DNA of 64,000 bases from Bacteroidia bacterium (lineage in GTDB: Bacteria; Bacteroidota; Bacteroidia; UKL13-3). A program made the position numbers and the translations under genes. This document shows, one piece after another, positions 3,712-51,086 of this stretch (position 1 is the first letter of the stretch; every line of letters starts with the position of its first letter). Location: positions 96,820 to 160,819 of the forward strand of contig JBIMKP010000001.1 in NCBI GenBank assembly GCA_051861545.1. The letters run 5' to 3'. The notes below the pieces were generated by a model. That model did not search any database, was not told where the DNA came from, and saw only the letters and a list, made by a program, of their open reading frames with translations.

Positions 3712-3712
3712 A

Positions 3713-12610: not shown

Positions 12611-12655
12611 TTTCAATTTCGCTAACATACGTTTAATCTCCCAAATTTTCAAACC

Positions 12656-33371: not shown

Positions 33372-34273
33372 TGAATACTCCTGTTTTACTTATATTATTC
33401 AACCGCTCTGATACGGCACTACAAGTATTAGAAAGAATAAAACTTGCAGGGGTTAAAAAGCTATATTTATTTTCTGATGGCCCCAGAACAAATAAAACGG
33501 GCGAATCTGAAATTCTAAAAAAAGTACAATCTGAAATTCTGAATGCAATTAACTGGGAATGTGAAGTAAAAACAAAATTTGAGGAAGAAAACAAAGGTCC
33601 ACGCTATGCCATTGGAAATGGAATAAACTGGTTTTTTGAAAATGAAGAAAATGGAATCATTTTCGAACACGACTGTCTACCAAACCTCAGCTTTTTTAGT
33701 TTCTGTGAAGAATTATTAGCCAAATATGCTGATGATGAAAGAATCATGCACATATCGGGTAATAATTTTCAGTTTGGGAGAACATTTGGAACTGGTGACT
33801 ACTACTTCTCAAAATTTAATCATATATGGGGCTTTGCTACTTGGAGAAGAGCCTGGAAACATTACGATTTAGACATGAAAAGTTATCCGGAATTTAAATT
33901 GAAAAACGAGTTAGTTAATATATTCCCAGATAATAGAGTTTATAAATTTTGGGAAACTGTATTTGATAAAACATATAATAAAGAAATCGAAACTTGGGAT
34001 TACCAATGGACATTTAGTATGTGGTGCCAAAATGGATTGGCGATTTTGCCACAAAAGAATCTGGTTAGCAATATAGGTTTTGATTCTGAAGCACTTAATA
34101 CAAAAAACCCAAATCATAAAGTAGCTTTCATGGAAACTTTTGAATTATTGGAAATCAAGCATCCAAAATGGATAATTCACCAAATGGATGCAGATATTTT
34201 CAGCATTCACAATATATTCTACCCAAGTATCCTTAAATTTGGAATCCAAAAAATAAAAAAACTGCTTAAATAA
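33371..34273 (+). CDS. Putative GT-A-fold nucleotide-diphospho-sugar transferase
   Basis: N-terminal PVLLILFNRSDTALQVLERIKLAGVKKLYLFSDGPR resembles bacterial GNT-I/HlpA-like glycosyltransferases. This is a memory-based call without a clear DxD. Confidence 0.4.
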   Translation: MNTPVLLILFNRSDTALQVLERIKLAGVKKLYLFSDGPRTNKTGESEILKKVQSEILNAINWECEVKTKFEEENKGPRYAIGNGINWFFENEENGIIFEHDCLPNLSFFSFCEELLAKYADDERIMHISGNNFQFGRTFGTGDYYFSKFNHIWGFATWRRAWKHYDLDMKSYPEFKLKNELVNIFPDNRVYKFWETVFDKTYNKEIETWDYQWTFSMWCQNGLAILPQKNLVSNIGFDSEALNTKNPNHKVAFMETFELLEIKHPKWIIHQMDADIFSIHNIFYPSILKFGIQKIKKLLK

Positions 34274-34279
34274 TCGTAA

Positions 34280-35197
34280 ATGAACTTAAAAAACCTTTTA
34301 AAGAAAAAGAGTGGCATTGATGCTTTTCTGCGTTGGCAGAGGATTGAATTGGAACAAAGCAGGATTCTAAATGGTCGATTATTTGCTAGTATTAACTCTT
34401 CAAAAGGTTTAGTTGAGGATTTTGAGAAAATAGAATTTTCAGTTTTTTCACAACTTGGAGATGATGGAATAATTCAATATTTGATTGAACAAATAAATTT
34501 TCCAAATAAATATTTCATTGAATTTGGAGTTCAAAATTATATGGAATCAAACACCCGATTTTTATTGATGAATAATAATTGGAGTGGATTAATAATGGAT
34601 GGCTCTGAGGAGTTTATCAATTTTATTAAAAACGATTATTATTATTGGAAATATAATTTAACCGCAAAGAAGCTATTTATTACAAAAGACAATATCAATC
34701 AGGCATTTTTGGAAGAAAAAGTCCCTCAAAACCCCGGAATTCTGCACATTGATATCGATGGAAATGATTACTGGATTTGGAAATCAATTGAAGTGGTAAA
34801 TCCAATTTTGGTAATAATGGAATACAACAGTGGTTTTGGTGACATAAGACCTATTACCGTTCCATATGTAGATGATTTTGAAAGATATAATTGTCACTTT
34901 AGCGGCTTGATATTTGGAGCATCTTTGCAGTCGCTTTGTGATCTGGCTGAGGAGAAAGGTTATTATTTCATTGGAAGCAACAGTTATGGCAATAATGCCT
35001 ATTTTGTAAAAAAAGAATATATTGGAAGCTTAAAGCCAATTACTTGTAAAGAAGGTTATAGATTAAGTAATTGCAGACAAAACAAAAATAAAGAGGGTAA
35101 TTTTACACTTGAATTGGATGAAAACATGATTAAAACTTATCCAAATGTAAAAGTGGTAAATACAAGAACAGGAAATTTAGAGAATTTAAATGAGTAA
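34280..35197 (+). CDS. Hypothetical protein in the glycan cluster
   Basis: 305-aa ORF, consistent frame, no recognisable motif. Confidence 0.4.
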   Translation: MNLKNLLKKKSGIDAFLRWQRIELEQSRILNGRLFASINSSKGLVEDFEKIEFSVFSQLGDDGIIQYLIEQINFPNKYFIEFGVQNYMESNTRFLLMNNNWSGLIMDGSEEFINFIKNDYYYWKYNLTAKKLFITKDNINQAFLEEKVPQNPGILHIDIDGNDYWIWKSIEVVNPILVIMEYNSGFGDIRPITVPYVDDFERYNCHFSGLIFGASLQSLCDLAEEKGYYFIGSNSYGNNAYFVKKEYIGSLKPITCKEGYRLSNCRQNKNKEGNFTLELDENMIKTYPNVKVVNTRTGNLENLNE

Positions 35198-35924
35198 TAA
35201 AGAGATGAAAACAGAACAAGAAGTAAAATTAGATAGTTATTTTAATAACAGAACCGTAGATCCGACTTATTATTCTAGTTATAAAATTCCAAGGTATTTA
35301 AAACCACATATTCCTGTAAATAAACATGCCAAAATATTAGATGTTGGTTGTGGATATGGTCAATTTTTAAATTCATTAAAAGAGCAAGGATATACTAATA
35401 TTTTAGGTATAGACATTAACAATGAATCAATTAATGAATGCAATGCAAAAGGATTAAAAGCAATACAAATTGAGGATATTAGAAATTATGCAAAAGAATG
35501 TAATGAAAAATATGATTTCATAACAATGAGTCACGTTCTTGAGCATATAGATAAAGATAAAATCATTGATACTTTATATCACATTAAAAAGTATTTACTC
35601 AAAGAAGGTGGCGAATTCATTTTAATGGTTCCAAATGCACAATCATACACAGGTGCTTACTGGAGATATGAAGATTTTACTCATACAATTATGTTCACTG
35701 CAGGGAGCTGTAACTATGTTTTAAAAGCAGCAGGTTTTAATACTATATCATTTATTGATGCAGATGGAACAGAACATATGAGTTTTTTAAAAAAGGTCAT
35801 AATCAAATCCTTAATAGGCATATATAAATTAAAAGAAGACTTTTGGAATATCGTTTTACAAACATCCTTTCACAAACCAAGTCCTAGGATATACTCATTT
35901 GAACTTAAAGTATCTGCCAAATAA
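35190..35924 (+). CDS. Class I SAM-dependent methyltransferase
   Basis: ILDVGCGYGQFLNSL (motif I) and LKEGGEFILMVPN. Overlaps the upstream gene by 8 nt. Confidence 0.65.
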   Translation: MSNKEMKTEQEVKLDSYFNNRTVDPTYYSSYKIPRYLKPHIPVNKHAKILDVGCGYGQFLNSLKEQGYTNILGIDINNESINECNAKGLKAIQIEDIRNYAKECNEKYDFITMSHVLEHIDKDKIIDTLYHIKKYLLKEGGEFILMVPNAQSYTGAYWRYEDFTHTIMFTAGSCNYVLKAAGFNTISFIDADGTEHMSFLKKVIIKSLIGIYKLKEDFWNIVLQTSFHKPSPRIYSFELKVSAK

Positions 35925-35939
35925 AAAAAAAATCTACCC

Positions 35940-38900
35940 ATGAAACCCTACTTAAGAATTCTACAATTATTAGTTTTTTGTTTTCTATCAAACATTAATA
36001 ATTCGATTTCTCAATGTATTACCTGTACAACTGTTAATTCATTAAACAACGGATTAATCTGGTGCCATCCTTTCAGTGGAAATGCAAACGATGTCACAGG
36101 CAATGGGTATGATGGTTTTGTTTCTGGTGCAACTTTAATGCCAGATAGAGCTGGAAACCCAAACTCAGCTTATAATTTCGATGGATTTTCAAGTTATATT
36201 TCTTTATCGAAGAATATTCCTAGTACTTTAACCACTTTTTCAATAAGCATGTGGTTAAAACCAGGTAGCAATTCTGGAAATGGATTCATTTTTTGGGAAG
36301 GAGATAATATATGTGGAAATGATATTTACCTTGTTTTACAGAATTCCACATTAAAACTTGGAGCAAATAAAGCGGCTAGTCTTGGCGGTTTAGGAAATTT
36401 ATCTCATACTTACACTGTGCCAAGTCCATTTATAAACACTTGGACTCATATAGTTTGGGTAATGGAGCCAACAACATCTAAACTTTATGTAAATGGAAGT
36501 TTAGCCACAACAATCAATTCAACAGGGAACGGTTCAGGTTATAATTTTCCAGCAAGTTATGGCAGTAAATATGATGGAAATACGGGTTCTTGTGGAGCAC
36601 CAAGGCAATTTTATTACCAAGGAGGAATAGATGATGTTCGACTTTACAATAGGAGCTTAAGCGCAAGTGAGGCATTAAGTTTGTTTAATATTTCCGCAGT
36701 AAGTCCACCTATACTTAATTCATTATTAGTTGATAGAAACATTTGCAAAGGAGATTCTATTCTAGCAAATCCAAGTGCTACAAATGCAAATAGTTATTTG
36801 TGGACTCCAAGTCTTGGCGTTAGTAATAATAGCATTCTTAATCCATACTTTAAACCTTCAGTTACTACTAATTATATCCTAAGTTTAAGTAATAATGTAT
36901 GTACAATAAGAGATACTTTTACAATTAATGTAAACTCTTTAAATATTGAATTAGGACCAAATAGAAACATCTGCAAAGGAGATTCAATTCGAATTAATCC
37001 AAGTATTATCAATGCAATAAATTTTAACTGGACTCCTAACATTGGTTTGAGTAATTCCTCTATTAGTAATCCATATTTTAAGCCAATTCTGACTACAAGT
37101 TATATTTTAACAGCAAGTAACAATCAATGTTCGATAAAAGATACATTTACAATAAATATAAATCCATTAAACCTTGAATTAGGGCCGGATAAAAACCTTT
37201 GTTTGGGTGATTCAATGCAAATGAACCCTGTAATAAATAATGCAAATAATTTAATATGGTCACCTCCCATAAATATAAGCAATGTTAATATTGCAACTCC
37301 ATTTGTAAAACCATCAATTTCAAGTAAATATTATCTTAATGTAAGCAATGGAACTTGCAGTTTAACTGATTCGATTTCAATTACAATAAATACTATTTCA
37401 TTAGATATTGGTTTAGATAAATCAATATGTTTAGGCGATAGTGTAGAAATCAATCCTACTGCTGGAGCAGGTACTTTTATATGGTCACCAAGTTTGGGCC
37501 TGAGTTCAATAATCACTAAAAATACCATCGCCAAACCAATTACAAGCACTAAATACTATTTAAATCATGTTAGTGGTGCTTGCAGTTTAACTGATTCTAT
37601 AAGTATTGCGGTTAATTCCCTTTCAGTTGAACTAGGAGTTGATAAAGGCTTTTGTTTAGGAGATAGCATTCAACTAAATCCAGAAACAAATAATTCAACA
37701 ATCTACAGCTGGAGCCCGACTAATTGGTTATCTGATCCACTAATTAAGAATCCTTTCTTCAAACCCGATTTACCAACAAAATACTTCCTAGCCGTTTCAA
37801 ATGGCATTTGTTCTGCAATCGATTCTATTATAATTAGTCCTAAATCTATTAGCGTAGAAGCAGGTATGGATATAGTAATTTGTTCAGGTGATAGTATAAA
37901 GTTAAATGCTGTTGCCGGTGCAGGTATTTATGCATGGTACCCGAAAATAAATATAAGTGATACAAGCATTTCTAATCCTATTATTAAACCAACAAGTGAT
38001 ATAAAATACTATTTAAAATATACTGAAGATGGATGTGAGAACATTGATTCAATATTTGCAATTGTCAGGCAGATAAGTTTGAATCTTTCTAAAAATGAAA
38101 CCATTTGCTTAGGAGATAGTGTTAAAATTTTAGCAAGTCAAACAGGAGCTAGCAATATAGAGTGGACACCAGCAATCGGTCTTTCTAATACAGATATCAT
38201 TCAACCATGGGCTAAACCAAATTCCACCCAAAAATATAAAATTCAACTTGATGATGGAGTTTGTTTTAAATCAGATAGTTTAACAATTTATGTTTTTGAT
38301 AAAAATTCCTATACCAAAAATAATGATACAAGTATTTGCCGTGGAAATAGCATTCAATTAAATATTTTAGGAGGTACAGCCTGGAATTGGATAAATCCTT
38401 ACATGCTAAACTCAAATAATATTCCAAATCCAATTGCATCTCCTCAAGTTGATACTTCATATATCGTAAAAATCTCAAATAATAACTGTTCAATCTACGA
38501 CACTATTTCACTTAAAGTAAATCAATTACCTGCAATTCAAGCAGGTAATGATACATTTCATTGCTTTAACAAATCGGTCCAAATATTTGGAAATAAAATG
38601 AACTCTTTACTTACCTACTGGGAGGCAAATCCCTATTTTCAGGATACCTTCGAACTAAATCAAAACGTATCTGTAAGTAATAACTATGAATTTGTATTAA
38701 TTGGAAAAAGTAATGACTGTTACAATTATGATACCATTCGAGTAGAGGAAAAACCGCTGGTAAATGCTGATTTTAAAATTAATCGAGAAGAAGGTTATCC
38801 TCCGCTAAACATAGTTTTAAATAATACCTCACCTATTACGCCATATTTTAATTGGAACTTTAATAATAACAATATTTCTACTGGGGGTAATTTAGACACC

Positions 38901-39287
38901 TCATTCATTTATAATAAAAGCGAGGACTTAAATATAAAACTTACAGTCACAGATAGCTTTAGCTGTGCAGATACTATTGTTAAAAGTGTAAAAATTTTAT
39001 TAAAACCATATTTTCAAGTACCTAATGCTTTTACACCTAATGGCGATGGTAATAACGATTATTTTCAAATAATTTATAATTCTGGGGCATTTAAATATGT
39101 TCAATATGAAATTTATAACCGTTGGGGAGAGCATCTATTCACATCAATTTTGCCTGGAGGTAAATGGTGGGATGGTTATTTTGAAAATTCTCCTTGTCCT
39201 GATGGAGTATATTTTTTTATTGCCAGAGGTGAAGCACTTGATGGCACAATATTTAATTCTCAGGGCACTGTAACACTTTTGCGATAG
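35940..39287 (+). CDS. T9SS type-B-CTD cargo: LamG lectin domain + 9 Cys-containing ~76-aa repeats + PKD-like module + CTD (paralog A)
   Basis: Signal peptide ...NINNSIS|QC. LamG/Laminin_G_3-like block CHPFSGNANDVTGNGYDGFVSGATL...MWLKP...IDDVRLYNRSLSASEALSL. Nine tandem units of form IC.GDSI..NP......W.P..GLSN..I.NP.FKP..TT.YIL.......C...D...I.VN. The CTD is VPNAFTPNGDGNNDYFQI...IYNRWGEHLFTS...WWDGYF...GVYFFIARGEALDGTIFNSQGTVTLLR. Confidence 0.8.
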   Translation: MKPYLRILQLLVFCFLSNINNSISQCITCTTVNSLNNGLIWCHPFSGNANDVTGNGYDGFVSGATLMPDRAGNPNSAYNFDGFSSYISLSKNIPSTLTTFSISMWLKPGSNSGNGFIFWEGDNICGNDIYLVLQNSTLKLGANKAASLGGLGNLSHTYTVPSPFINTWTHIVWVMEPTTSKLYVNGSLATTINSTGNGSGYNFPASYGSKYDGNTGSCGAPRQFYYQGGIDDVRLYNRSLSASEALSLFNISAVSPPILNSLLVDRNICKGDSILANPSATNANSYLWTPSLGVSNNSILNPYFKPSVTTNYILSLSNNVCTIRDTFTINVNSLNIELGPNRNICKGDSIRINPSIINAINFNWTPNIGLSNSSISNPYFKPILTTSYILTASNNQCSIKDTFTININPLNLELGPDKNLCLGDSMQMNPVINNANNLIWSPPINISNVNIATPFVKPSISSKYYLNVSNGTCSLTDSISITINTISLDIGLDKSICLGDSVEINPTAGAGTFIWSPSLGLSSIITKNTIAKPITSTKYYLNHVSGACSLTDSISIAVNSLSVELGVDKGFCLGDSIQLNPETNNSTIYSWSPTNWLSDPLIKNPFFKPDLPTKYFLAVSNGICSAIDSIIISPKSISVEAGMDIVICSGDSIKLNAVAGAGIYAWYPKINISDTSISNPIIKPTSDIKYYLKYTEDGCENIDSIFAIVRQISLNLSKNETICLGDSVKILASQTGASNIEWTPAIGLSNTDIIQPWAKPNSTQKYKIQLDDGVCFKSDSLTIYVFDKNSYTKNNDTSICRGNSIQLNILGGTAWNWINPYMLNSNNIPNPIASPQVDTSYIVKISNNNCSIYDTISLKVNQLPAIQAGNDTFHCFNKSVQIFGNKMNSLLTYWEANPYFQDTFELNQNVSVSNNYEFVLIGKSNDCYNYDTIRVEEKPLVNADFKINREEGYPPLNIVLNNTSPITPYFNWNFNNNNISTGGNLDTSFIYNKSEDLNIKLTVTDSFSCADTIVKSVKILLKPYFQVPNAFTPNGDGNNDYFQIIYNSGAFKYVQYEIYNRWGEHLFTSILPGGKWWDGYFENSPCPDGVYFFIARGEALDGTIFNSQGTVTLLR
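36723..38775 (+). repeat. In-frame tandem array of about 9 x ~228-bp (76-aa) two-Cys repeat units inside paralog A
   Basis: Repeat boundaries at each ..LELGPD/LDIGLD..(K/R)N-I-C-x-G-D-S. Recurring nucleotide motif tgtttaggagatagt (e.g. 37428, 37656, 38106). Confidence 0.55.
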
Positions 39288-39666
39288 TAATAAAATTTAT
39301 CATTAAACATACAATCATAATTTGACAAAAAAGTCAAATAACTGAAAATATTTTATGATTAAAAATTTTACTAATTACAATAAAACAAAGTAATTCTTAA
39401 TGATAGGTAGAAAAATATTGAAACTAAAACAAGGCTCCCCTTACTGTCTCATTTTACTAATAACAAGAAATCAAAATGATGATTCTTTGAAGCAACAAGA
39501 ACCTAGATTTAAATATTATTTAAAAAACTCATAATCAAAATTTTAATTGGATTTATCAGAATTTTGAGAGAAATTTGACATCAATTTGTTTAATTATTTT
39601 CCATAAAACAATTCAAGAGATTTATTCAGTTAAATGAAGAGTATTTGCATAATCAAAAATCTACCC

Positions 39667-42600
39667 ATGAGAGTAAATTTAAAAGTTCTATTATCATTGA
39701 TATTTTTCTATTTCGCAAATATCTCTATTTCGAAATCTCAATGTCTTACGTGTACAACTAACAACCCATTAAACTCTGGATTAATCTGGTGTCACCCTTT
39801 CAGTGGAAATGCAAACGATGTTACCGGAAATGGATATGATGGTTTTGTTTCAGGGGCAACATTAATTCCAGATAGGGCTGGTAACTTAAACTCAGCTTAC
39901 AATTTTAATGGCACATCAAGTTATATCTCTATATCAAAATTATTACCAAGTTTTCTTCCAACATTTTCTATGAGTATGTGGCTAAAACCTGGCACAAATA
40001 CAGGCAATGGTTTTGTTTTATGGGAAGGAGATAACGCTTGTGGGAATGACATTTATCTGGTAGTTCAAAATTCAACTATTAAACTTGGTGCAAATAAAAA
40101 TTCAAGCTTAGGCGGACTTGGAAATTCTGCTCATACATATACAGTTCCTGGATCATTTATAAATAACTGGACTCACATAGTTTGGGTAATGGAGCCAACA
40201 ACATCAAGACTTTATGTTAATGGTAATTTAGTAATTACAATCAATGCAGCTGGAAATGGTTCTGGTTATAATTTCCCAACAAGCTATGGAAGTAAATTTG
40301 ATGGAATTGGAGGTTCTTGTGGTGCACCAAGGCAATTTTATTACCAAGGGGGTATTGATGATGTTCGACTTTATAATAGGAGTTTGAGTGCAAGTGAGGC
40401 ACTAAGTTTATACAATATTTCACCTGGAACACCACCTATAATTACCTCAATAACTGACAGATTTATTTGTAAGGGAGATTCAATACAAGTAAATCCGATT
40501 GTGAGTAATGCAACAAATTTTTCATGGTCACCAACTTCTGGGGTAACCAATCCGAATATTATAAATCCTTTTTTTAAGCCCTCAGCATCTACAACTTACA
40601 TTTTAAGTGCCAGCAATAGTCAATGTACAGAAAAAGACACATTCTCAATCTATTTAAATAGTCTTAACCTTGAACTTGGGGCAAATAGAAATATATGCTT
40701 GGGAGACTCTATAAGACTCAATCCTATTATTTCAAATGCAAGCACGTTTAGTTGGACACCTGCAACCGGTATAAGCAATACAGGAATTTCCAATCCTTTT
40801 TTAAAACCAATAAGCACAACAACATATATTCTTACCGCAAGCAACAACTCTTGTTCTATAAAAGATACTGTTACAATTGTTGTAAATAATATTAGTTTAG
40901 AAGTGGGACCTGATAAAAATATATGCCCTGGAGATTCCATTCAAATCATCCCAATTTTTAGCAATGTCGATAATTTTTCCTGGCAACCAACTTTGGGAGT
41001 AAGCAATTCCGTAATAAGTAGCCCTTATTTCAAGCCAACAACTACAACTAATTATATTCTAACTGCAACAAATAGTTCATGCACAATAAAAGATACTGTT
41101 CGAATTCAGGTAAATGGTATTAGTTTAGAATTAGGTGCTGACAAAACATTTTGTCCAGGAGATTCAATAAAAATAAACCCAACAATAGTTAATGCAAATA
41201 ATTTCAGTTGGCTACCCATAACCGGTCTTAGTAATCCAAATATTAGTAACCCCAATTTCAAGCCCAGTGTTACCACTAAATACATACTTACTGCAAGCAA
41301 CAACTTTTGCACATTAAAAGATTCAATTACGATTCATGTAAATGACTTAAGTCTAGAATTGGGTTTAAATAGAAACATTTGTCCAGGAGATTCTGTCCAG
41401 CTAAATCCCATATTTACTAATGCAAATAGTTTTCTTTGGACTCCCAATTTAGGTATAAGTAGTCCAACAATAAGTAACCCTATTTTAAAGCCTGATACTA
41501 CAACTAAATATATATTGACAGCGAACAATACTTCTTGCTCAATTAGCGATACCATTTTAATTCAGGTAAACAATTTAAGGATTCTACTCGGACCCAATAA
41601 AAATATCTGTTTAGGAGATTCAATTAGAATCAATCCCTTTACATCAAATGTTTCATCATTCAATTGGTCTCCATCAATTTTTGTAAGTAATACCGGCATA
41701 GAAAATCCATTTTTAAAACCAACTACTTCCACTAAATTTTATTTAGATGTGAGCAATAGTTCCTGTAGCTTAAAGGATTCCGTTGAAATCACAGTAAATA
41801 CAATTTCACTTGAACTGGGTTCTGATAAGACAATTTGTTTGGGAGATAGTATTATTCTTAACCCTTTAGCAGGAAATGGTAACTTTTTATGGTCACCGGC
41901 AACTGGACTTAATACAATAAATTCTAAAAATACCATTGCAAAACCTATATCAAATATTAAATACTATCTAAATCATACCAATGGGGCTTGTTCAATGATT
42001 GATTCAGTAACAATTTCAGTAAATAGTATTTCTGTAGAACTTGGCACAGATAAGTCTGTTTGTTTAGGAGATAGTATCAGAATTAACCCCACAACAATAA
42101 ATACATCAAATTATTCTTGGAGCCCTATAAATGGAATTTCTGACCCATTAATTAAAAACCCCTTCTTCAGTCCAAATATTTCAACTAAATATTTTTTATT
42201 AGTTTCTGATGGCTTATGTAGTGCAAAAGATTCAATTTCCATTGAAACCAAAATTATAAGTTTAAATGCTGGATTGGACCAAACAATTTGTTTAGGAGAT
42301 AGCATTCAATTAAATGCAATAGCAGGTATTGGAAACTATTCATGGTATCCTAAAATAGAAATTAGTGATACAAGTATTTCAAACCCTATAGTTCAGCCTA
42401 AAAACGATAGAAAATACTTCATTAGCTATGCAGAAAATGGTTGTCGAACATTAGATTCAATTTTAGTAATAGTGAGGCAAATAGGTTTGGATGCGGGTAT
42501 AGACAAAACAATTTGTTTAGGAGATAGTATACAAATCTTAGCAAATCAATTTGGTGGAAGTAATTTAATTTGGAGTCCTGCAATTGGTCTTTCTGATATT

Positions 42601-43692
42601 AACATAATCCAACCTTGGGCAAAACCAATTTCAACTCAAAAATATAAATTAAAAATAGACGATGGAGTTTGCTTTAAATCAGATAGTTTAACCATTACAA
42701 TTTTAGATAAAAACCTAATATCAAAAAGCAATGACACAATGATTTGTTCCGGAAATTCTGTTCAACTAAACATTATTGGTGGAACTAATTTGCAATGGTT
42801 AAATCCATACAATTTAGATTTAAGTAATATTTCTAAACCTGTTGCATCACCTCTTATTGATACAATATATATTGTAAAATTTTCTACGAATGGTTGTTGG
42901 TTTTTTGATTCAATTTCTATCAAAGTAAATAAAAGTCCTTTTATTGATGCTGGTAGAGATACATTTCATTGTTTCGAAAATTTTGTTAAAATAACTGGGA
43001 ATAAAGGAAATTCGTTACAATCATATTGGCAGTCTAACCCGTATTTCTCAGATACATTAAAATTAGACCAAATTGTTTCAATCAAAAATCAATATAAATT
43101 TATTCTAACCGGAAATAGCAATGGTTGTTTTAGTTTTGATACTATTGTTGTAAATGAAAGGCCTAAAGTAACTGCCGACTTTTCGGTATTTCCTGAAAGC
43201 GGTTTGACCCCCTTAGATATTAACTTAAAAAATACTTCAACAAATTATACAATATTCTCTTGGGTAATTGATGGTACAAGTTCAAATGGACTCGACCCTG
43301 ACACTAGCTTTATTTATAATAACAAAAAGGATTTAAGTATTCTTTTGACTGTATTTGACAGCTCTGGATGCACTGATACTATAAGCAAAACTATAAAGAT
43401 AAATGTTGAACCCGTTTTTAAGATCCCAAATGTGTTTACACCAAATGTAGATTATTCCAATGATTACTTTGAAATATTACACAATCCGGAAGCATTCAAA
43501 TATGTTGAATATGAAGTTTATAACAGATGGGGTCAATTGCTATACAAAACCAAAATGCCTGGCGGAAAATGGTGGGATGGTACTTTTGATGGAAATCCTT
43601 GCCCGGAAGGCGTCTATTTTTATATAGCAATTGGAGAAGCTTTAAACGGAAAAATGTTTAATGCTCATGGAACATTAACCTTACTTAGGTAA
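39667..43692 (+). CDS. T9SS type-B-CTD cargo: LamG + about 14 Cys-containing repeats + PKD-like module + CTD (paralog B; track start 39634 is probably 33 nt too far upstream)
   Basis: Same architecture as paralog A. The LamG domain is ~85% nt-identical (CHPFSGNANDVTGNGYDGFVSGATLIPDRAGNLNSAYNF...IDDVRLYNRSLSASEALSL). The shared start context aaaaatctacccATGA(a/g)a is found at 35928-35945 and 39655-39672, supporting the ATG at 39667 (MRVNLKVLLSLIFFYFANISISKS|QC). The CTD is slightly degenerate (IPNVFTPNVDYSNDYFEIL...YNRWGQLLYKT...GTLTLLR). Confidence 0.8.
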   Translation: MRVNLKVLLSLIFFYFANISISKSQCLTCTTNNPLNSGLIWCHPFSGNANDVTGNGYDGFVSGATLIPDRAGNLNSAYNFNGTSSYISISKLLPSFLPTFSMSMWLKPGTNTGNGFVLWEGDNACGNDIYLVVQNSTIKLGANKNSSLGGLGNSAHTYTVPGSFINNWTHIVWVMEPTTSRLYVNGNLVITINAAGNGSGYNFPTSYGSKFDGIGGSCGAPRQFYYQGGIDDVRLYNRSLSASEALSLYNISPGTPPIITSITDRFICKGDSIQVNPIVSNATNFSWSPTSGVTNPNIINPFFKPSASTTYILSASNSQCTEKDTFSIYLNSLNLELGANRNICLGDSIRLNPIISNASTFSWTPATGISNTGISNPFLKPISTTTYILTASNNSCSIKDTVTIVVNNISLEVGPDKNICPGDSIQIIPIFSNVDNFSWQPTLGVSNSVISSPYFKPTTTTNYILTATNSSCTIKDTVRIQVNGISLELGADKTFCPGDSIKINPTIVNANNFSWLPITGLSNPNISNPNFKPSVTTKYILTASNNFCTLKDSITIHVNDLSLELGLNRNICPGDSVQLNPIFTNANSFLWTPNLGISSPTISNPILKPDTTTKYILTANNTSCSISDTILIQVNNLRILLGPNKNICLGDSIRINPFTSNVSSFNWSPSIFVSNTGIENPFLKPTTSTKFYLDVSNSSCSLKDSVEITVNTISLELGSDKTICLGDSIILNPLAGNGNFLWSPATGLNTINSKNTIAKPISNIKYYLNHTNGACSMIDSVTISVNSISVELGTDKSVCLGDSIRINPTTINTSNYSWSPINGISDPLIKNPFFSPNISTKYFLLVSDGLCSAKDSISIETKIISLNAGLDQTICLGDSIQLNAIAGIGNYSWYPKIEISDTSISNPIVQPKNDRKYFISYAENGCRTLDSILVIVRQIGLDAGIDKTICLGDSIQILANQFGGSNLIWSPAIGLSDINIIQPWAKPISTQKYKLKIDDGVCFKSDSLTITILDKNLISKSNDTMICSGNSVQLNIIGGTNLQWLNPYNLDLSNISKPVASPLIDTIYIVKFSTNGCWFFDSISIKVNKSPFIDAGRDTFHCFENFVKITGNKGNSLQSYWQSNPYFSDTLKLDQIVSIKNQYKFILTGNSNGCFSFDTIVVNERPKVTADFSVFPESGLTPLDINLKNTSTNYTIFSWVIDGTSSNGLDPDTSFIYNNKKDLSILLTVFDSSGCTDTISKTIKINVEPVFKIPNVFTPNVDYSNDYFEILHNPEAFKYVEYEVYNRWGQLLYKTKMPGGKWWDGTFDGNPCPEGVYFYIAIGEALNGKMFNAHGTLTLLR
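40456..43170 (+). repeat. In-frame tandem array of about 14 x ~228-bp two-Cys repeat units inside paralog B
   Basis: Same unit as in paralog A. The motif tgtttaggagatagtat recurs at ~41835, 42059, 42288 and 42515. Confidence 0.55.
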
Positions 43693-43785
43693 TTTAACTC
43701 TAAAAATTATATCAATTTTTGTTGAAACTATATTCTAAGCAATATTATTATATTAAATTCCAAAATATTTTTGACATAAATTTTT

Positions 43786-45852
43786 GTGAATTATAACAAA
43801 TTAAATATTCAGTTTTGGTATATACTTATTTCCCAAATTTGTGGTCTATCTTTCTTTTCTAAAGTTCAGGCTCAGTGCACTTTTGCAAATCGAATAACAT
43901 ATACAAATTTGGCTGTAAATGGTGATTTTACTTTAGGAAATACTGGATTTAACCATCCAGATTTATTTTATTCAAGCATTTACCCGTTAGACACAGGTAA
44001 ATTTACAATTACAACAAATGCAGCTTTGGTAAGTCCTAGCTTAAGTGGATTCGATCATACCAGCGGTAGTGGTAATTTTATGGTTATTAACCAAGGTTCA
44101 AATCCTGTAGTTTGGAAACAAACCATTACTGTTAATCCAGGAGAAGCTTATTTATTTGCATCTTGGTTTAAAAATGTAGTAAAACTGCCAGATTATGCAG
44201 GTTTACCAACTGCCAAAATGGAACTTTGGATAAATGGAACAAAAATTAGTAGTACACTAAATGTGTCTGATTCACCAGATGAATGGCGTCTTTTGGAAGC
44301 AACTTGGATTTCAGGAACTGCAACAACTGCTAATATAGAAATCAGGAATGCTGAAACTTCAACAAGTGGAAATGATTATGGCATTGATGATGTAACATTT
44401 AAATCATGCTGCCAAAACAAAGTAAATGCAGGTATTGACCAAACTATTTGTTTGGGAGATAGTGCTATTCTAAACGCAGATGGTGCAGTAAGCTTTGTTT
44501 GGTCTCCAGTTTTTCATATAAACAATATTAATATCCCAAACCCAATAGTTCGACCTCCTGTTACAACAAATTATTATGTTACTAGAACAAATGGATCCTG
44601 CATTTCAAAAGATACGATATTAATAACTGTTCAACAAGTTTCTGCAAATGCGGGCATTGACCAAAAAATTTGTGCTGGTGATAGTATTCAACTCAACGGA
44701 AAAGTTGTTGCCACAAAATGGGAATGGATTCCAACAACAGATTTAAGAGATCCCCTAAGTTTACAATCTTGGATGGTTCCAAAAACACCAACTAAACTTA
44801 TTCTAAAAGCTGAAATAACTAATTGCACCAGGTACGATACTGTTGATATATCTTTCATCAACAACATAAATGCAAGAGCTGGTAACGATACATTTACATG
44901 TTCAGGAAATCCAATTCAATTAAAAGCTAGTGGTGGAAATAACTATTTATGGCTAACAAATTATCAAATCAATGATATAAATTCAGCCAATCCTATTGTT
45001 AATCCTTTGGTAGATACCAATTACATTTTAAGGGTTCAAGTAGGAAGTAATTGTTTTGGCTATGATACTGTTTTTGTTGCTGTAAATGGGGCAGCAAGTA
45101 TAGAACTAGGAGAAGACTTAGGACATTGTTTTGATGGTGCTGTTCAAATACCAACAGTATTTAAAAATCCAGTAGATTCTTTTAATTGGTCGCCACAAAC
45201 AGGTTTAAATAATGTGAAAATTGAACGTCCATTTGCAGCAATTAAAGGCAAACAAACATTTACACTTACAGCTTATAAAAATTCTTGCATAAGCAAAGAC
45301 AGTGTTTTGGTTTATGAAATGCCAAAAATAACCGCAAAATTCATTACCAACCCACAAAATGCAATTGCACCAAGTTTTGTTCAATTCATTAATCAATCAA
45401 CGAATGGAACAAGATTTTCATGGGAATTTGGAGATGGGTCATTTCCGTCACAAGAAGTAAATCCTGTTCATTATTACAAAGATACAGGTGAATTTATAGC
45501 CAGATTATTTGCTATTGATAGTTTAGAATGTGCTGATAGAGCTGTAAAAACTATAACATTAGTTACTGCTCCTTATTTAAAATTACCTAATGCAATAAGC
45601 ATTAATGGAGACGGTATCAATGAAAAGTTCATTCCTATTTTTAATGAAGAAGCATTTTTATGGTTGAGATATACTATTTATGATAGATGGGGAAATGAGA
45701 TTTATTTTACAGAATATCCTAATGCAAATTGGTGGGATGGAACCATAGACGGTGAACCTTGCCAAACTGGAACATATTTTTATAAAATTGATGCTTTAGG
45801 CCGAAATAATGAGCCATTTAATTTAAAAGGCACAATCGATTTACTCAGATAA
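43786..45852 (+). CDS. T9SS type-B-CTD cargo: N-terminal jelly-roll/CBM-like domain + about 4 of the same Cys repeats + PKD-like module + degenerate CTD
   Basis: Signal peptide ...SKVQA|QC. The N-terminal ~200 aa (GDFTLGNTGF...GSGNFMVINQGSNPVVWKQTITVNPGEAYLFASWFKNV...YGIDDVTFKSCC) resembles a CBM_4_9/galactose-binding-like module. Then ICLGDSAILNADG...WSP...NP...P.VTTNYYVTRTNGSCISKDTILITV-type repeats. The CTD is LPNAISINGDGINEKF...IYDRWGNEIYFT...WWDGT...GTYFYKIDALGRNNEPFNLKGTIDLLR. GTG start. Confidence 0.7.
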   Translation: MNYNKLNIQFWYILISQICGLSFFSKVQAQCTFANRITYTNLAVNGDFTLGNTGFNHPDLFYSSIYPLDTGKFTITTNAALVSPSLSGFDHTSGSGNFMVINQGSNPVVWKQTITVNPGEAYLFASWFKNVVKLPDYAGLPTAKMELWINGTKISSTLNVSDSPDEWRLLEATWISGTATTANIEIRNAETSTSGNDYGIDDVTFKSCCQNKVNAGIDQTICLGDSAILNADGAVSFVWSPVFHINNINIPNPIVRPPVTTNYYVTRTNGSCISKDTILITVQQVSANAGIDQKICAGDSIQLNGKVVATKWEWIPTTDLRDPLSLQSWMVPKTPTKLILKAEITNCTRYDTVDISFINNINARAGNDTFTCSGNPIQLKASGGNNYLWLTNYQINDINSANPIVNPLVDTNYILRVQVGSNCFGYDTVFVAVNGAASIELGEDLGHCFDGAVQIPTVFKNPVDSFNWSPQTGLNNVKIERPFAAIKGKQTFTLTAYKNSCISKDSVLVYEMPKITAKFITNPQNAIAPSFVQFINQSTNGTRFSWEFGDGSFPSQEVNPVHYYKDTGEFIARLFAIDSLECADRAVKTITLVTAPYLKLPNAISINGDGINEKFIPIFNEEAFLWLRYTIYDRWGNEIYFTEYPNANWWDGTIDGEPCQTGTYFYKIDALGRNNEPFNLKGTIDLLR

Positions 45853-46115: not shown

Positions 46116-49100
46116 ATGAAGATAAAATTACTTAGGTTGATTTTCGCATTTGTATTTCTAGTTGGATTAGGTTCAAAGCAATTAAATGCTCAAACTTATT
46201 CTTGGGCAGTTAAAGCAGCAGGCACAGGTGCAGATCATACCCGCGGAATAACTACAGATGCTCAACAAAATGTTTATCATTATTTTTATTACACAGGTAG
46301 TGTTACTATTGATAGTGCAGGAACACCTATTACCATAACAAGTAATGGTGGTAAAGACTTAGCCATTGTTAAGTATAACTGTAATAAACAATTTCAATGG
46401 GTTGTAAAAATTGGAGGACCATACCAAGATGGAGGAGACTTTAATAATCTAGGGATTGCAGTTGATTCATTAGGAAATATTTTTGCCTCTGGCTCTTACC
46501 GAGTTCAATTATTTGTAACATCAAGTAATGGTAGCACTATAACAAGAGGAGCAACGGGCCCAGTTAGTGTAATAGACAATATGTTTATTTTAAAAATGAC
46601 CAATAGTGGTATTGTGCAATGGGTAAACACTGGAATAAGTAATGGAGATGATGAAGGAGCAGGATTATGTGTTGATAGAGCTGGTGATGTATACGTTACT
46701 GGTTTTCATTCTAATAATGCCTTATTTACTTCAACTTCAGGAACAACAAACGCAACTTTAACAAGCTTAGGAAGTACAGATATTTTTATTGTTAAATACT
46801 CAACTCTTGGAGAGATTTTAATTAGTAACAGAGGAGGAGGTAACTTTCAAGATTTAGGCGCATCAATTGATGTTGATAGCAGCAGTAATATTTATGTAGC
46901 AGGTCAATTTGGTTCAGGAGGTTCTGGTATAGTTACATTAGGAAACGTAATTTCAAATACTGGAGGATGGGGAGCATTTGTAGCAAAAGCAGATGCAAAT
47001 GGTACTTGGATTTGGGCAAATTCAATGGGGCAAGCAGCATCTGAAGGTTATTCAAATGTAAAAGTAGATGATTTAAATGATAGAGTTTATGTAACTGGTC
47101 ATTATAACGGAAACTCCCAAGTAACAAGTAGGCCTGGTGGCACATTTGTAAATGTTACAACCAATGGCCAATTTGATGCAATTATAGTCTGCATGAATTT
47201 AGATGGAGCCAACCAATGGGTTAGAACCATGGGAAGTGTCTCTAATGAATTCGGTTATGGCCTAACATTAGATGCAAACTTAAACGTGATGTTTTCTGGT
47301 GAATTCTCTGGGACCATTTCACTTGGAGCTTTATCTATAGCTTCTTCTGGAAACTCATCTGGATATATGGCAAGAATTTCTAGATTAAATGTACCTTTAA
47401 ACCTATACAAAATTGGAACAACAAGCCCAGGTTTTAGAGCTGCAAGTGTTTTACATACTGGAAGTTCAGGAAAAGTTTATGTAGGTGGGTATTATATTTC
47501 ATCTCCAGTATATTTTTCAAATGATACCCTAGTAGGTGCTGGTGGTGAAGATGCATTTTTAGCTAAAATAAACGAAAATGATACTACATTTTTAAGGAGC
47601 ACAGCAACCACCATTCAATGTACTGGAGATACCTCATTTTTATACATTCCAAACAAAGATTTTGGAACATTTAGGTGGTTAAGAAATGATACCTTAATTA
47701 CAATTACTACCGACAATCGCTTTAAAACCAATATTAGCGGTACTTATAGGGTTGTAAGTGTTAGTCCTTGTGAACCTAATGATACTTCAATAGCAATAAC
47801 TGTAAATAAATTAACAACCTTTGTAACACCAAGATTAGGCGATAAAACAATCTGTAGGTCTGACAGCGCACAACTTGGAGGAAATACTGCATATAATTAT
47901 ACATGGACACCAAGTGCTGGTTTAAGAGATTCAATGGCAGCGAGTCCTTGGGCATTACCTAACACGAATACTACTTATTTTGCAACAATAAATTTCCAAG
48001 GTTGTACTTCTAGAGATACCTTAGTGGTTTCCGTTAATCAGAATTGTTGTATTACATGTTCTACGCCATACGATATCAACCAAGGATTAATTGCTTGTTA
48101 TCCATTTAATGGAAATGCAAATGATGAAAGTGGAAATGGAAACAATGGCACAGTAACTGGCGCAACCTTAACTGCAGATAGATTTGGAGTTGCAAACCGC
48201 GCTTACCTGTTTAATGGATTTAATAATTTCATTAATGTTCCAAACTCTCCAAGTTTAGCTTCACCTACAAATGAAGTAACCATTGCATTTTGGGGAAGAA
48301 TTAATGGATTTTATACATTTAACCCAGGAACAATATTTGCATCTGCAGTAACAAAAGGAAGTTCAACTACAAATTACCAATACCGTTTTGCAGTTAAAAA
48401 TAATGGTATTTTAAGCTTTAATAACAATAGACAATGGAACTTTACAGTAGGCACTAATACTGCACTAGCAACTTGGTATCACTTTGCTGTTACTATGAAG
48501 GATACGCTAATGATTTATTACAGAAATGGTTTACCAGTAGGCTCTTCAACAGTTACTAGCTCTTATACAAGTGCAAGAAATGAAAATTTAAGGATTGGAA
48601 GAGGAAATCCAACAAATGCTGCCGACCAATACAATGGTGTGATTGATGAAGTAAAAATTTGGAATAGAGCATTATCAGGAGCAGAAATATTTAAATTGTA
48701 TAGCTTAAGTTCAATTAATGGTTTACCTACAGTTAATGCTGGATTAGATAAAAACATGTGTAAAGATGATAGTGTGTTTATTAATGCTACAGGTACTGGA
48801 ATTGCAAACTTTTTATGGACTCCAAATAGAAGTTTAATGACAGATTCAACGGCTCTTATCATTAGAACATGGCCAGCTGATACTACAACTTTTATTTTAA
48901 GAGCGGATGTTAGTGGTTGCAAAAACTACGATACCATGAACGTAAATGTAATAGATTTCAAACCTGAAGCTGGTCTGCCGCAAAATATATGCTTTGGTGA
49001 TAGCACTCAATTAAATGCATCATCGGCCTTATTACACCAATGGTCGCCAAACCTATATATTAGCAATGTTAATATTTCAGATCCTTGGGTAAAACCTGAT

Positions 49101-51055: not shown

Positions 51056-51086
51056 TAAAAAATCCCGCAATTGCGGGATTTTTTTT
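51056..51086 (+). terminator. Rho-independent terminator after the adhesin gene block
   Basis: aaaaaATCCCGCAATTGCGGGATtttttttg: a perfect 10-bp GC-containing palindrome plus a T8 run. Confidence 0.7.

What the first reader, a model, noticed from the sequence alone, without database searches (positions are those of the whole stretch)
35940..43692. Tandem paralogous LamG-repeat-CTD adhesin genes with conserved ends and different repeat numbers
Genes 35940-39287 and 39667-43692 share a long near-identical 5' part: signal peptide, the 'QC(I/L)TCTT' start of the mature protein and a ~250-aa LamG domain. For example 36061-36185 and 39786-39910 are ~85% nt-identical, and 36592-36700 matches 40317-40425. 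They also share a 3' part (repeat 'WAKP(N/I)STQKYK..DDGVCFKSDSLTI', PKD module and CTD). The central array differs: about 9 units in one and about 14 in the other, all in frame. This is the signature of recent duplication with repeat-number expansion or contraction, or gene conversion, in a surface adhesin family. It is a plausible source of antigenic or adhesive variation.
Basis: seen in the sequence. Interest (0 to 1): 0.55.

Follow-up and report, generated by a model that had tools for sequence, protein, structure and literature searches.

The report
Old paralogous T9SS adhesin gene pair
Two neighbouring genes in a freshwater Bacteroidia genome encode related surface stalk proteins with a lectin-like tip and 9 or 12 immunoglobulin-like segments. 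They are an old, stable duplicate of a very common protein type, not a fast-changing repeat system.

Summary
The two genes are real tandem paralogs with the same build: signal peptide, LamG head, Ig-like units of about 76 aa, a PKD-like module and a T9SS type-B C-terminal domain. Several details in the finding are wrong.

- Unit counts are 9 and 12, not 9 and about 14.
- The quoted B coordinates are 2 nt off.
- The "near-identical" 5' part is 73% identical over 1.28 kb, or 79% in LamG.
- The 3' end is no better conserved than the middle.

The duplication is old. Synonymous divergence is about 1 to saturated everywhere. Both paralogs, with unchanged unit counts, occur in every related lineage found, including an A ortholog only 77% identical.

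Units share at most 71% DNA identity. Tandem Repeats Finder sees no array, and the longest exact repeat is 19-29 nt. I found no sign of paralog gene conversion or of a phase-variation switch. The "recent duplication, repeat-number flux or gene conversion" reading is therefore not supported.

Strain variation exists, but elsewhere. Against a near-identical Lake Mendota relative, the gene A head is a replaced block (dS 0.93), while the stalk is almost identical (dS 0.02).

Overall these are ordinary new members of the "gliding motility-associated C-terminal domain" proteins. The closest solved relative is the GhpA grappling-hook stem.

The parts
35940..39287 (+). Gene A, 1115 aa: signal peptide, LamG head, 9 Ig-like units, PKD-like module, type-B CTD
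   Evidence: ORF, translation, Pfam and NCBIfam hits, unit HMM
35940..36011 (+). Gene A signal peptide (aa 1-24). Predicted cleavage is SIS|QC, leaving an N-terminal Gln
   Evidence: Read from the translation; no signal-peptide predictor was run. Gln at +1 fits the Bacteroidetes Q-rule (PMC5837995)
36012..36713 (+). Gene A LamG / concanavalin-A-like head (aa 25-258), beginning QCITCTT
   Evidence: PF13385 E 6.6e-18. AF2 core pLDDT about 80-90. Foldseek best hits are AbnA domain 4 and the clostridial neurotoxin Hc lectin-like domain
36714..38759 (+). Gene A array of 9 Ig-like units (A1-A9), 75-77 aa each
   Evidence: Three-unit AF2 model has pLDDT 92.8 and is all-beta. Homologous to GhpA stem Ig-like domains
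38760..39005 (+). Gene A PKD-like module (aa 941-1022)
   Evidence: No Pfam hit of its own. Aligns collinearly with gene D's PKD_4 + CHU_C region, 34% identity, E 1e-39
39006..39284 (+). Gene A T9SS type-B C-terminal domain (aa 1023-1115)
   Evidence: PF13585 56.6 bits (cut-off 27); TIGR04131 48.5 bits (cut-off 35)
39288..39666 (+). A-B intergenic spacer, AT-rich. The last 12 nt (AAAAATCTACCC) are shared with the leader of gene A
   Evidence: No convincing inverted repeats
39667..43692 (+). Gene B, 1341 aa (1352 aa from the alternative in-frame ATG at 39634): same build as A but with 12 units
   Evidence: The start at 39667 is supported by the shared leader and by the alignment of the two signal peptides
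39739..40437 (+). Gene B LamG head (aa 25-257)
   Evidence: PF13385 E 9.1e-17. 81.8% aa identity to the A head
40438..43167 (+). Gene B array of 12 Ig-like units (B1-B12)
   Evidence: PF19081 Ig_7 62.5 bits
40894..41577 (+). Units B3-B5, the three units with no counterpart in gene A. They are closest to unit 2 (57-66% aa)
   Evidence: Unit identity matrix: A1=B1, A2=B2, A3=B6, A4-A9=B7-B12
43168..43689 (+). Gene B PKD-like module (aa 1168-1248) and type-B CTD (aa 1249-1341)
   Evidence: PF13585 59 bits; TIGR04131 49.7 bits; alignment to gene A
43786..45852 (+). Gene C, 688 aa: unrelated head, 4 Ig-like units, PKD, type-B CTD. Same family and same cluster
46116..51053 (+). Gene D, 1645 aa: SBBP beta-propeller-like N-terminus, 1 unit, an internal LamG preceded by CCITCST, 8 units, PKD, type-B CTD
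51057..51084 (.). Palindromic GC-rich hairpin flanked by A and T runs. It is the only strong terminator-like site after the four genes
35612..37018 (+). Strain-variable block 1. It is 15% divergent from the otherwise 99-100% identical relative L007. It covers the gene A leader, signal peptide, LamG head and unit 1
   Evidence: Mismatch map. dS 0.93 in the head against 0.021 in units 2-8
39906..40215 (+). Strain-variable block in the gene B LamG head, 13% divergent from L007/L002

Best explanation
Genes A and B are ancient tandem paralogs. They form a four-gene cluster with C and D and encode surface-displayed, adhesin-like fibrils of the Bacteroidota type IX secretion system.

Proposed working of each protein:
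1. It is exported by Sec, and the signal peptide is cut before a glutamine. This is inferred.
2. It is recognised through its C-terminal PKD-like module plus type-B CTD. The CTD is shown by sequence.
3. It is passed through the T9SS translocon and is probably held on the outer membrane by a PorP/SprF-like shuttle encoded elsewhere. This is inferred from F. johnsoniae and P. gingivalis work.
4. A rod of 9 (A) or 12 (B) Ig-like domains projects an N-terminal LamG / ConA-like, probably glycan-binding, head away from the cell. The folds are supported by sequence homology and predicted structure. The N-terminus-distal orientation is inferred by analogy with GhpA. Ligand binding is inferred.

The two proteins therefore present two related heads (82% aa identity) on stalks that differ by three domains. 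That is roughly 12 nm if each domain spans about 4 nm, an estimate from my own knowledge.

The three-domain difference is an old event, and outgroups suggest a gain in B of unit-2-like domains. It is now fixed.

The array is a diverged domain array, not a DNA repeat. Repeat number is therefore not a contingency switch here.
For: Domain content:
- Pfam Laminin_G_3, Ig_7 and CHU_C, and NCBIfam TIGR04131, all score above cut-off.
- The gene A C-terminus aligns with gene D's PKD_4 + CHU_C region, E 1e-39.
- The units are homologous to the Ig-like stem domains of the T9SS substrate GhpA (PDB 9flp, E 4e-69).
- The three-unit AF2 model has pLDDT 92.8. Among its top Foldseek hits, the GhpA fragments have the highest sequence identity, about 20%.
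- The LamG head model matches the sugar-binding AbnA domain 4 (TM 0.73 normalised to the target) and neurotoxin Hc lectin-like domains.

Age of the duplication:
- A-B dS is 0.96 to saturated. dN is 0.12 in LamG and 0.20-0.49 elsewhere.
- The same A-B-C-D order occurs in L003 and L007; L002, whose contig starts just upstream of B, has B-C-D.
- P0019 is clearly A-type (77% identical to A, 63% to B) and has 9 units.

Stability of unit number:
- Counts are 9/9/9/9 for A-type genes and 12/12/12/12 for full-length B-type genes. A truncated B-type fragment is consistent with 12.

No recombination substrate:
- Tandem Repeats Finder finds no array.
- Unit-to-unit DNA identity is at most 71%.
- Exact repeats are 19-29 nt.

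No concerted evolution:
- LamG A-B identity is 77.3% within the window genome, against 74.5-77.5% between genomes.

Family context:
- Relatives with the same head-first build have 4, 5, 7, 7, 7 and 8 units.
- Public sources call such proteins [quoted passage not shown].

Literature:
- Type-B CTD substrates bind PorP-like proteins for anchorage (PMC9143113).
- Orphan type-B substrates use a shuttle encoded elsewhere (PMC12618676).
Against: - No experiment or expression data exist for these genes.
- No PorP/SprF or PorE gene, and no T9SS core gene, was detected in the 64-kb window. Secretion and anchoring therefore rest on homology.
- The ligand of the LamG head is unknown. A nutrient-capture role would fit the same architecture equally well.
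- The LamG model is only moderately confident overall (mean pLDDT 68.8).
- The direction of the three-unit change rests on weak parsimony from outgroups with 7-8 units. B3-B5 are about as far from B2 as from A2.
- Signal-peptide cleavage was judged by eye.
Confidence: 0.75

Rival explanations
1. A recent duplication whose central repeat array expands and contracts by slippage or unequal crossing-over, or whose ends are homogenised by gene conversion. This would give rapid antigenic or length variation, like the variable-length "periscope" stalk proteins.
For: The two genes differ by an exact multiple of the unit (3 x 76 aa). The LamG part is the most similar part between the paralogs. The longest exact A-B match (29 nt, 36450 / 40177) lies in LamG, inside the patch where B of the window differs from B of L002.
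Against: - dS is about 1 to saturated everywhere.
- Both paralogs are present in lineages with background dS of 0.4-1.8.
- Unit numbers are invariant in all relatives found.
- No DNA-level repeats exist.
- A-B identity is equal within and between genomes.
- In the B LamG patch, B of the window matches A at 18 sites and B of L002 matches A at 16. There is no clean conversion tract.
Confidence: 0.04
2. The locus does vary between strains, but through homologous recombination that replaces the LamG head (and genes C and D) with old, divergent alleles. The Ig-like stalks stay nearly identical across strains. Heads would be exchangeable specificity modules on a conserved stalk, kept diverse by selection such as differing ligands or avoidance of phage and grazers.
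For: - Window against L007: 0.1-0.9% divergence over 34286-43978, except for sharply bounded blocks at 35612-37018 (15%), 38652-38765 (18%), 38886-39251 (6.6%) and 39906-40215 (13%). Everything right of 43979 is about 20% divergent.
- Gene A head dS is 0.93 against 0.021 in units 2-8, a 44-fold difference.
- The three head alleles (window, L003, L007) are mutually at dS 0.85-0.93 with dN/dS 0.07-0.09.
- Central stalk dS between the window and L003 is 0.07-0.08, against 0.42-1.8 for flanking genes.
- Against more distant comparators the stalk evolves faster than the head: A against P0019 is 76% in the stalk and 82% in the head, and A against B shows the same. Constraint therefore does not explain the near-identical stalks.
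- L002 and L007 are separate assemblies from different samples, and they agree at 99.6-100% in every 300-nt window across the breakpoints.
Against: - All sequences are metagenome assemblies or MAG contigs, and chimeric assembly of co-occurring strains can mimic mosaics.
- The only other copy of the window configuration (L001) is identical to the window, so it is not independent.
- Only three or four alleles are available.
- dN/dS is low, so there is no direct sign of diversifying selection.
- No formal recombination test was run.
Confidence: 0.45
3. A and B are short relatives of the GhpA grappling hook. They would form multimeric rigid appendages used to catch other cells.
For: The units are homologous to GhpA stem Ig-like domains. 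The organisation is the same: an N-terminal binding module, an Ig-like stem and a T9SS CTD (bioRxiv 10.1101/2024.01.29.577165). The conserved Cys pairs and D-S/T-x sites recall the disulfides and putative O-glycans of the GhpA stem.
Against: - A and B have 9-12 units against 52, and 1115-1341 aa against 5898.
- The head is LamG, not the roughly 1400-aa hook module.
- There are no adjacent PorP/PorE homologs like ghpB/C.
- Oligomerisation is untestable here.
- Sequence identity to GhpA domains is only about 20%.
Confidence: 0.08
4. The proteins are not adhesins in the strict sense. They would be cell-surface glycan-capture proteins for nutrient acquisition, with the LamG head acting as a carbohydrate-binding module held away from the cell.
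For: The best structural match of the head is the arabinan-binding domain 4 of the GH43 arabinanase AbnA. The LamG superfamily includes many carbohydrate-binding and glycosidase-associated modules. The host is a freshwater Bacteroidia, a group known for polysaccharide use (my own knowledge).
Against: No glycoside hydrolase, SusC/D or other PUL gene lies next to the cluster. The head also matches protein- and ganglioside-binding lectin-like domains. Fold alone does not give the ligand.
Confidence: 0.25

Closest known systems
GhpA, grappling hook protein A of Aureispira sp. CCB-QB1 (PDB 9flp, 9fls, 9flu-9fly, 9g8b)
   Same: It is a T9SS substrate with an N-terminal binding module, a stem of tandem Ig-like domains and a C-terminal sorting domain. 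The units here are detectably homologous to its stem domains (E 4e-69 overall). Its fragments are among the top Foldseek hits for the unit model and have the highest sequence identity, about 20%.
   Different: GhpA has 52 Ig-like repeats and 5898 aa, a roughly 1400-aa hook instead of a LamG head, forms heptamers, and has PorP/PorE homologs encoded next to it. None of these holds, or can be shown, here.
Orphan type-B CTD substrates of Flavobacterium johnsoniae (Fjoh_1123, Fjoh_1720, Fjoh_4934) and the broad class annotated [quoted passage not shown] (PF13585 / TIGR04131)
   Same: They carry a TIGR04131 CTD, are putative adhesins, and have no porP/sprF-like gene directly downstream (PMC12618676). 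Database relatives carry exactly this annotation.
   Different: No orthology to the named F. johnsoniae proteins was tested. The shuttle protein for A-D is unknown.
SprB, the gliding adhesin of F. johnsoniae
   Same: It is a large repetitive type-B CTD surface protein that binds a PorP-like partner, SprF (PMC9143113).
   Different: No SprB-repeat (PF13573) hit was found in A or B. A and B are much shorter and have no adjacent sprF. Nothing links them to motility.
Variable-length "periscope" stalk proteins and other contingency repeat adhesins (my own knowledge: Whelan et al., PNAS 2021)
   Same: They have a binding head on a stalk of tandem Ig-like or similar domains, with paralogs or alleles of different stalk length.
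   Different: That class is defined by near-identical DNA repeats and by copy-number differences between strains. Here repeats share at most 71% DNA identity and counts are invariant.

Membership tests
T9SS type-B CTD substrate (TIGR04131 / PF13585 CHU_C) | C-terminal type-B sorting domain scoring above the curated cut-offs | tested here: met
   A: PF13585 56.6 bits (cut-off 27), TIGR04131 48.5 (cut-off 35). B: 59.0 and 49.7. D: 54.1 and 42.0. C: 54.1, and 34.4, which is just under 35
T9SS type-B CTD substrate (TIGR04131 / PF13585 CHU_C) | N-terminal Sec signal peptide | tested here: met
   Judged by inspection only. There is a basic n-region, a hydrophobic core, small residues, then Gln at +1 in A, B, C and D. 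This fits the Bacteroidetes Q-rule (PMC5837995). No predictor was available
T9SS type-B CTD substrate (TIGR04131 / PF13585 CHU_C) | Cognate porP/sprF-like shuttle gene directly downstream (common, but not universal: orphans exist) | tested here: not met
   No PorP_SprF or OmpA-type hit in any ORF scanned in the window. This places A-D in the orphan class described in PMC12618676
T9SS type-B CTD substrate (TIGR04131 / PF13585 CHU_C) | Secretion depends on the T9SS and the protein is surface-anchored | not testable with these tools
   Needs genetics or proteomics
LamG / concanavalin-A-like lectin domain (PF13385) | Profile match above cut-off and a jelly-roll fold | tested here: met
   65.7 and 62.0 bits against a cut-off of 27.6. 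PDB 4qvs LamG E 1.3e-6. Foldseek AbnA domain 4, TM 0.73 normalised to the target, rmsd 3.2
LamG / concanavalin-A-like lectin domain (PF13385) | Carbohydrate or other ligand binding | not testable with these tools
   Fold only
CHU_C-associated Ig-like domain array (PF19081 Ig_7; GhpA-stem type) | Tandem Ig-like beta-sandwich units homologous to Ig_7 / GhpA stem domains | tested here: met
   B scores 62.5 bits on Ig_7 (cut-off 27.3). A has no Pfam hit at E <= 0.01, but both match GhpA. The unit HMM finds 9 and 12 units. The AF2 three-unit model has pLDDT 92.8 and is all-beta
GhpA grappling hook | N-terminal hook module, about 52 Ig-like repeats, adjacent PorP/PorE homologs (ghpB/C), heptameric assembly | tested here: not met
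   LamG head instead of a hook, 9-12 units, and no porP/porE in the window. Oligomeric state is not testable
SprB-type gliding adhesin | SprB repeats (PF13573) and an adjacent sprF | tested here: not met
   No PF13573 hit in A-D; no sprF
Contingency or "periscope" variable-length repeat adhesin | Near-identical tandem DNA repeats | tested here: not met
   Tandem Repeats Finder finds none. Best unit pair is 71% identical. Longest exact repeat within a gene is 19-22 nt
Contingency or "periscope" variable-length repeat adhesin | Repeat number differs between strains | tested here: not met
   9 units in 4 of 4 A-type genes and 12 units in 4 of 4 full-length B-type genes
PKD domain (PF18911 / PF00801) | Profile match | tested here: inconclusive
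   No Pfam PKD hit in A or B at E <= 0.01. The module does align with the PKD_4 + CHU_C region of gene D at 34% identity, E 1e-39

The most novel reading that the evidence does not exclude
The lectin-like heads of these T9SS fibrils may be exchangeable specificity cassettes. Among otherwise near-identical freshwater Bacteroidia strains, homologous recombination would swap ancient, strongly diverged LamG-head alleles (dS about 0.9) onto a conserved Ig-like stalk (dS about 0.02). The stalk segments themselves have spread across lineages that are only about 85% identical elsewhere. That would be a domain-level gene-specific sweep combined with balanced polymorphism in a surface adhesin.
Probability: 0.3. 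Interest if true: 0.45.

Novelty: new member of a known kind. Interest (0 to 1): 0.22.

Why it matters
As it stands, little changes. The genes add two more members to the very large class of Bacteroidota T9SS type-B "gliding motility-associated C-terminal domain" proteins.

- **Methodological point.** A tandem array of protein domains plus a paralog of different length looks like a contingency locus to the eye. DNA-level repeat identity, synonymous divergence and unit counts in relatives show that it is a fixed, old architecture.
- **Biological points.** The GhpA-type Ig-like stem is reused in short, head-first fibrils of 4 to 12 units. In this population the strain-to-strain differences sit in the lectin-like heads rather than in stalk length. 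If that holds in real genomes, these heads are candidates for ecological specificity determinants in abundant lake bacteria.

Tried and rejected
- **Paralog gene conversion.** I compared A-B identity within and between genomes for four regions. I also scored site by site the patch where B of the window differs from B of L002 (18 sites match A one way, 16 the other). No signal, so rejected.
- **DNA-level tandem repeats or slippage substrates.** Tandem Repeats Finder at minimum score 30, the repeat finder and a longest-exact-match search found nothing usable.
- **Phase-variation switches.** An inverted-repeat scan of the three intergenic spacers gave only weak AT-rich pairs. The homopolymer scan found only an A10 run in the 15-nt leader before gene A (A7 in L003). 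It is non-coding except where it overlaps the upstream stop codon.
- **Promoter and terminator scan.** The sigma-70 promoter scan was at or below shuffle expectation and does not suit Bacteroidota. Only the hairpin after gene D stands out.
- **First metagenome scan.** Exact peptide patterns from gene A found nothing. The second scan, with an alignment, gave only distant relatives.
- **Word-indexed search with the LamG head alone.** It returned only fragments and missed A and B themselves. The full-length search and the exhaustive search were needed.
- **Direction of the three-unit change.** The unit identity matrix cannot decide it. Outgroups with 7-8 units only weakly favour a gain in B.
- **Independent support from L001.** L001 is identical to the window, so it adds nothing.

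Full report
**What is at the coordinates**

The + strand carries four consecutive large ORFs:
- A: 35940-39287, 1115 aa.
- B: 39667-43692, 1341 aa. An in-frame ATG at 39634 would add 11 aa.
- C: 43786-45852, 688 aa.
- D: 46116-51053, 1645 aa.

All four end in the CHU_C / TIGR04131 domain, the type-B sorting signal of the Bacteroidota type IX secretion system. A and B each begin with a signal peptide, then Q-C-(I/L)-T-C-T-T and a Laminin_G_3 domain.

The 12 nt before the ATG are the same in both genes: AAAAATCTACCC before 35940 and before 39667. This supports 39667 as the homologous start of B.

**Check of the observation**

- A and B are collinear homologs. blastn gives 73.1% over 1278 nt at the 5' end and 67.5% over 2433 nt for the remainder.
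They are 85.6% and 85.3% identical when B is shifted by +2 nt, to the true offset of 3727.
- By region, nucleotide and amino-acid identity are as follows:

| Region | nt identity | aa identity |
|---|---|---|
| LamG | 78.6% | 81.8% |
| Individual units | 64-75% | 56-70% |
| PKD-like module | 55.7% | 47.6% |
| CTD | 68.5% | 63.4% |

- Only the head is better conserved. The 3' end is not, so there is no "conserved ends, variable middle" pattern.
- The longest exact match between the genes is 29 nt.

**The repeat array**

- Anchoring on the conserved C-x-G-D-S motif gives 9 units in A and 12 in B, each 75-77 aa. An HMM built from these units recovers the same counts.
- The unit-by-unit identity matrix gives a clean correspondence: A1=B1, A2=B2, A3=B6 and A4-A9=B7-B12, at 54-68% aa.
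- B3-B5 (window 40894-41577) are the extra units. They resemble unit 2 most, at 57-66%.
- The 226-aa length difference is three units minus two single-residue indels.
- At the DNA level there is no repeat. Tandem Repeats Finder reports nothing inside the genes. The best unit pair is 71% identical. The longest exact repeats within A and B are 19 and 22 nt.

**Age of the duplication**

- Nei-Gojobori estimates between A and B give dS of 1.12 in LamG and 0.96 to saturated in the units and C-terminus. dN is 0.117 in LamG and 0.20-0.49 elsewhere.
- The higher similarity of the head therefore reflects purifying selection on protein sequence, not recent exchange.
- The same four-gene order, with A of 1115 aa and B of 1340 aa, occurs in L003 (CALRIT020000014.1) and in L007 (JGI 3300034121). 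L002 (JBIPMI010000031.1, a Lake Mendota Bacteroidia MAG) has B, C and D. Its contig starts just upstream of B.
- Flanking genes of the window and L003 differ at dS 0.42-1.8.
- P0019 is a more distant A-type protein: 77% identical to A and 63% to B. It still has 9 units.
- All full-length B-type proteins have 12 units. The N-truncated P0021 shows units 2-12.
It is met.

**No concerted evolution and no switch**

- In LamG, A-B nucleotide identity is 77.3% within the window genome, 74.9% within L003 and 74.5-77.5% across genomes.
- In the one patch where B of the window departs from B of L002/L003, B of the window matches A at 18 sites and B of L002 matches A at 16.
- The intergenic spacers hold only weak AT-rich inverted repeats.
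- The only homopolymer near the genes is an A10 run in the leader before gene A.

**What the proteins are**

- *Units.* The units hit one solved protein strongly: GhpA, the grappling-hook protein of Aureispira (E 4e-69 over many domains). GhpA is a T9SS substrate whose stem consists of 52 Ig-like repeats (bioRxiv 10.1101/2024.01.29.577165).
- *Unit fold.* An AlphaFold2 model of units A2-A4 used the other triplets of A and B as its alignment. It is confident (pLDDT 92.8) and all-beta. Its Foldseek hits are generic tandem-Ig arrays and GhpA fragments. The GhpA fragments have the highest sequence identity, about 20%.
- *Head.* The head model is moderate overall (68.8) but has a core at 80-90. It matches the arabinan-binding domain 4 of AbnA (TM 0.73 normalised to the target) and the lectin-like half of clostridial neurotoxin binding domains.
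- *C-terminus.* The gene A C-terminal 181 aa align with gene D's PKD_4 + CHU_C region at 34% identity, E 1e-39.
- *Anchoring.* The literature shows that type-B CTD proteins bind PorP-like proteins for anchorage (PMC9143113). Substrates without an adjacent porP/sprF gene use a shuttle encoded elsewhere (PMC12618676).
- *Shuttle.* I detected no PorP/SprF or PorE gene in the window, although it encodes seven CHU_C proteins.
- *Conclusion.* The best reading is a Sec- and T9SS-exported surface fibril. It would have a LamG head at the distal N-terminus, a 9- or 12-domain Ig-like stalk, and a PKD-like module plus type-B CTD at the membrane end. The orientation, the anchoring and the binding function are inferred.

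**The wider family**

- The LamG head belongs to a huge superfamily: 45,637 representative clusters at E <= 1e-3.
- Proteins with the same head-first build (signal peptide, C-x-x-C, LamG, units, PKD, type-B CTD) occur in other, mostly freshwater, Bacteroidota. They have 8 units (P0025), 7 (P0166, L004, and L005 with a second LamG), 5 (P0212) and 4 (P0257).
- These outgroups are equidistant from A and B. Unit number does change in this family, but on the timescale of deep divergence. Parsimony weakly favours a gain of three units in B.
- Sources annotate such proteins as [quoted passage not shown].

**Where strains really differ**

- Window against L007/L002: the stretch 34286-43978 is 0.1-0.9% divergent except for sharply bounded blocks.
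  - 35612-37018: 15% divergent. It covers the gene A leader, signal peptide, LamG head and unit 1.
  - 38652-38765: 18% divergent.
  - 38886-39251: 6.6% divergent.
  - 39906-40215: 13% divergent, inside the gene B LamG head.
  - Everything to the right of 43979 (genes C, D and fumC) is about 20% divergent.
- Within gene A, dS is 0.93 in the head and 0.021 in units 2-8.
- The three head alleles (window, L003, L007) are mutually at dS 0.85-0.93 with dN/dS 0.07-0.09.
- Between the window and L003, the central stalks have dS 0.07-0.08, far below the flanking genes.
- Against more distant comparators the stalk diverges faster than the head. Constraint therefore does not explain the near-identical stalks.
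- This pattern fits homologous recombination that exchanges head segments and spreads stalk segments between lineages.
- All the sequences are metagenome assemblies, however, and the only second copy of the window's configuration (L001) is identical to it. Chimeric assembly is not excluded. I give this reading about 0.45.

**Verdict**

The mechanistic interpretation (recent duplication, repeat-number flux, gene conversion) is not supported. The genes are ordinary new members of a known and very abundant class. The head-block mosaic is the only mildly interesting lead, and it needs read-level confirmation.

Noticed in passing
window 36714-38759, 40438-43167, and the units of genes C and D: Each Ig-like unit carries two matches to the Bacteroidota O-glycosylation sequon D-(S/T)-(A/I/L/V/M/T) at fixed positions: CxGDS[IV] near the start and Cxxx-D[ST][ILV] near the end. 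Counts are 15 in A (3.5 expected from shuffles), 26 in B (5.1) and 30 in D (8.2). The motif is as cited in PMC8550257. GhpA Ig-like domains were reported to carry putative O-glycans. The matches could equally be structural residues of the fold.
   Followed up: partly
window 31022-35924; L004 8918-9901 and 12837-13640; L006 7400-8545 and 11916-13082: Gene A starts 15 nt after a co-oriented run of FkbM and class-I methyltransferases, a GT2 and two unknown genes. The distant relatives in L004 and L006 are also flanked by glycosyltransferases. This may link the proteins to glycosylation, or they may simply sit in surface-polysaccharide regions.
   Followed up: partly
L003 (CALRIT020000014.1): The contig belongs to an assembly labelled Vulcanococcus limneticus, a cyanobacterium. 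It has 32.5% G+C and carries this Bacteroidota T9SS locus in full synteny. It is probably a mis-binned contig.
   Followed up: partly
window 6467-12652 (-), 12656-13540 (-), 14228-17035 (+), 55958-56947 (+): The window holds three further CHU_C type-B CTD proteins: 2060 aa with PKD domains, 293 aa, and 935 aa with DUF7948 + SBBP. An ECF-type sigma factor gene lies at 13544-14089. There is also one type-A CTD protein (Por_Secre_tail). T9SS cargo genes are unusually dense here, yet no shuttle gene was detected.
   Followed up: no
window 35940-36020, 39667-39745, 43786-43880, 46116-46190: All four proteins have Gln immediately after the likely signal-peptidase site (SIS|QC, SKS|QC, VQA|QC, LNA|QT). 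This is as expected from the Bacteroidetes Q-rule (PMC5837995).
   Followed up: partly
window 48054-48590 (gene D, aa about 647-860): The internal LamG of gene D is preceded by the same Cys motif (CCITCST ... ACYPFNGNANDESGNGNNG) as the N-terminal heads of A and B. The C-x-x-C element therefore belongs to the LamG module rather than to the mature N-terminus as such.
   Followed up: no
L002 position 1 (= window 39153): The Lake Mendota MAG contig starts in the A-B spacer, so gene A is missing from that MAG. The break may have been caused by the paralogous sequences. The gene is present in the separate assembly L007, which is 99.6-100% identical to L002 in every 300-nt window where they overlap.
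   Followed up: yes
window 35923-35932: An A10 run spans the stop codon of the upstream methyltransferase and the leader of gene A. L003 has A7 followed by TTT. It is non-coding apart from its overlap with that stop codon. Any effect on translation initiation is unknown.
   Followed up: partly
window 545-4714: Four consecutive ORFs of 212-419 aa have no Pfam family at E <= 1e-4: one on the + strand and three on the - strand.
   Followed up: no
window 56986-58005 (-): A radical SAM / SPASM-domain protein is encoded convergently, next to the type-A CTD protein gene. This could be a peptide-maturation context. I did not examine it.
   Followed up: no
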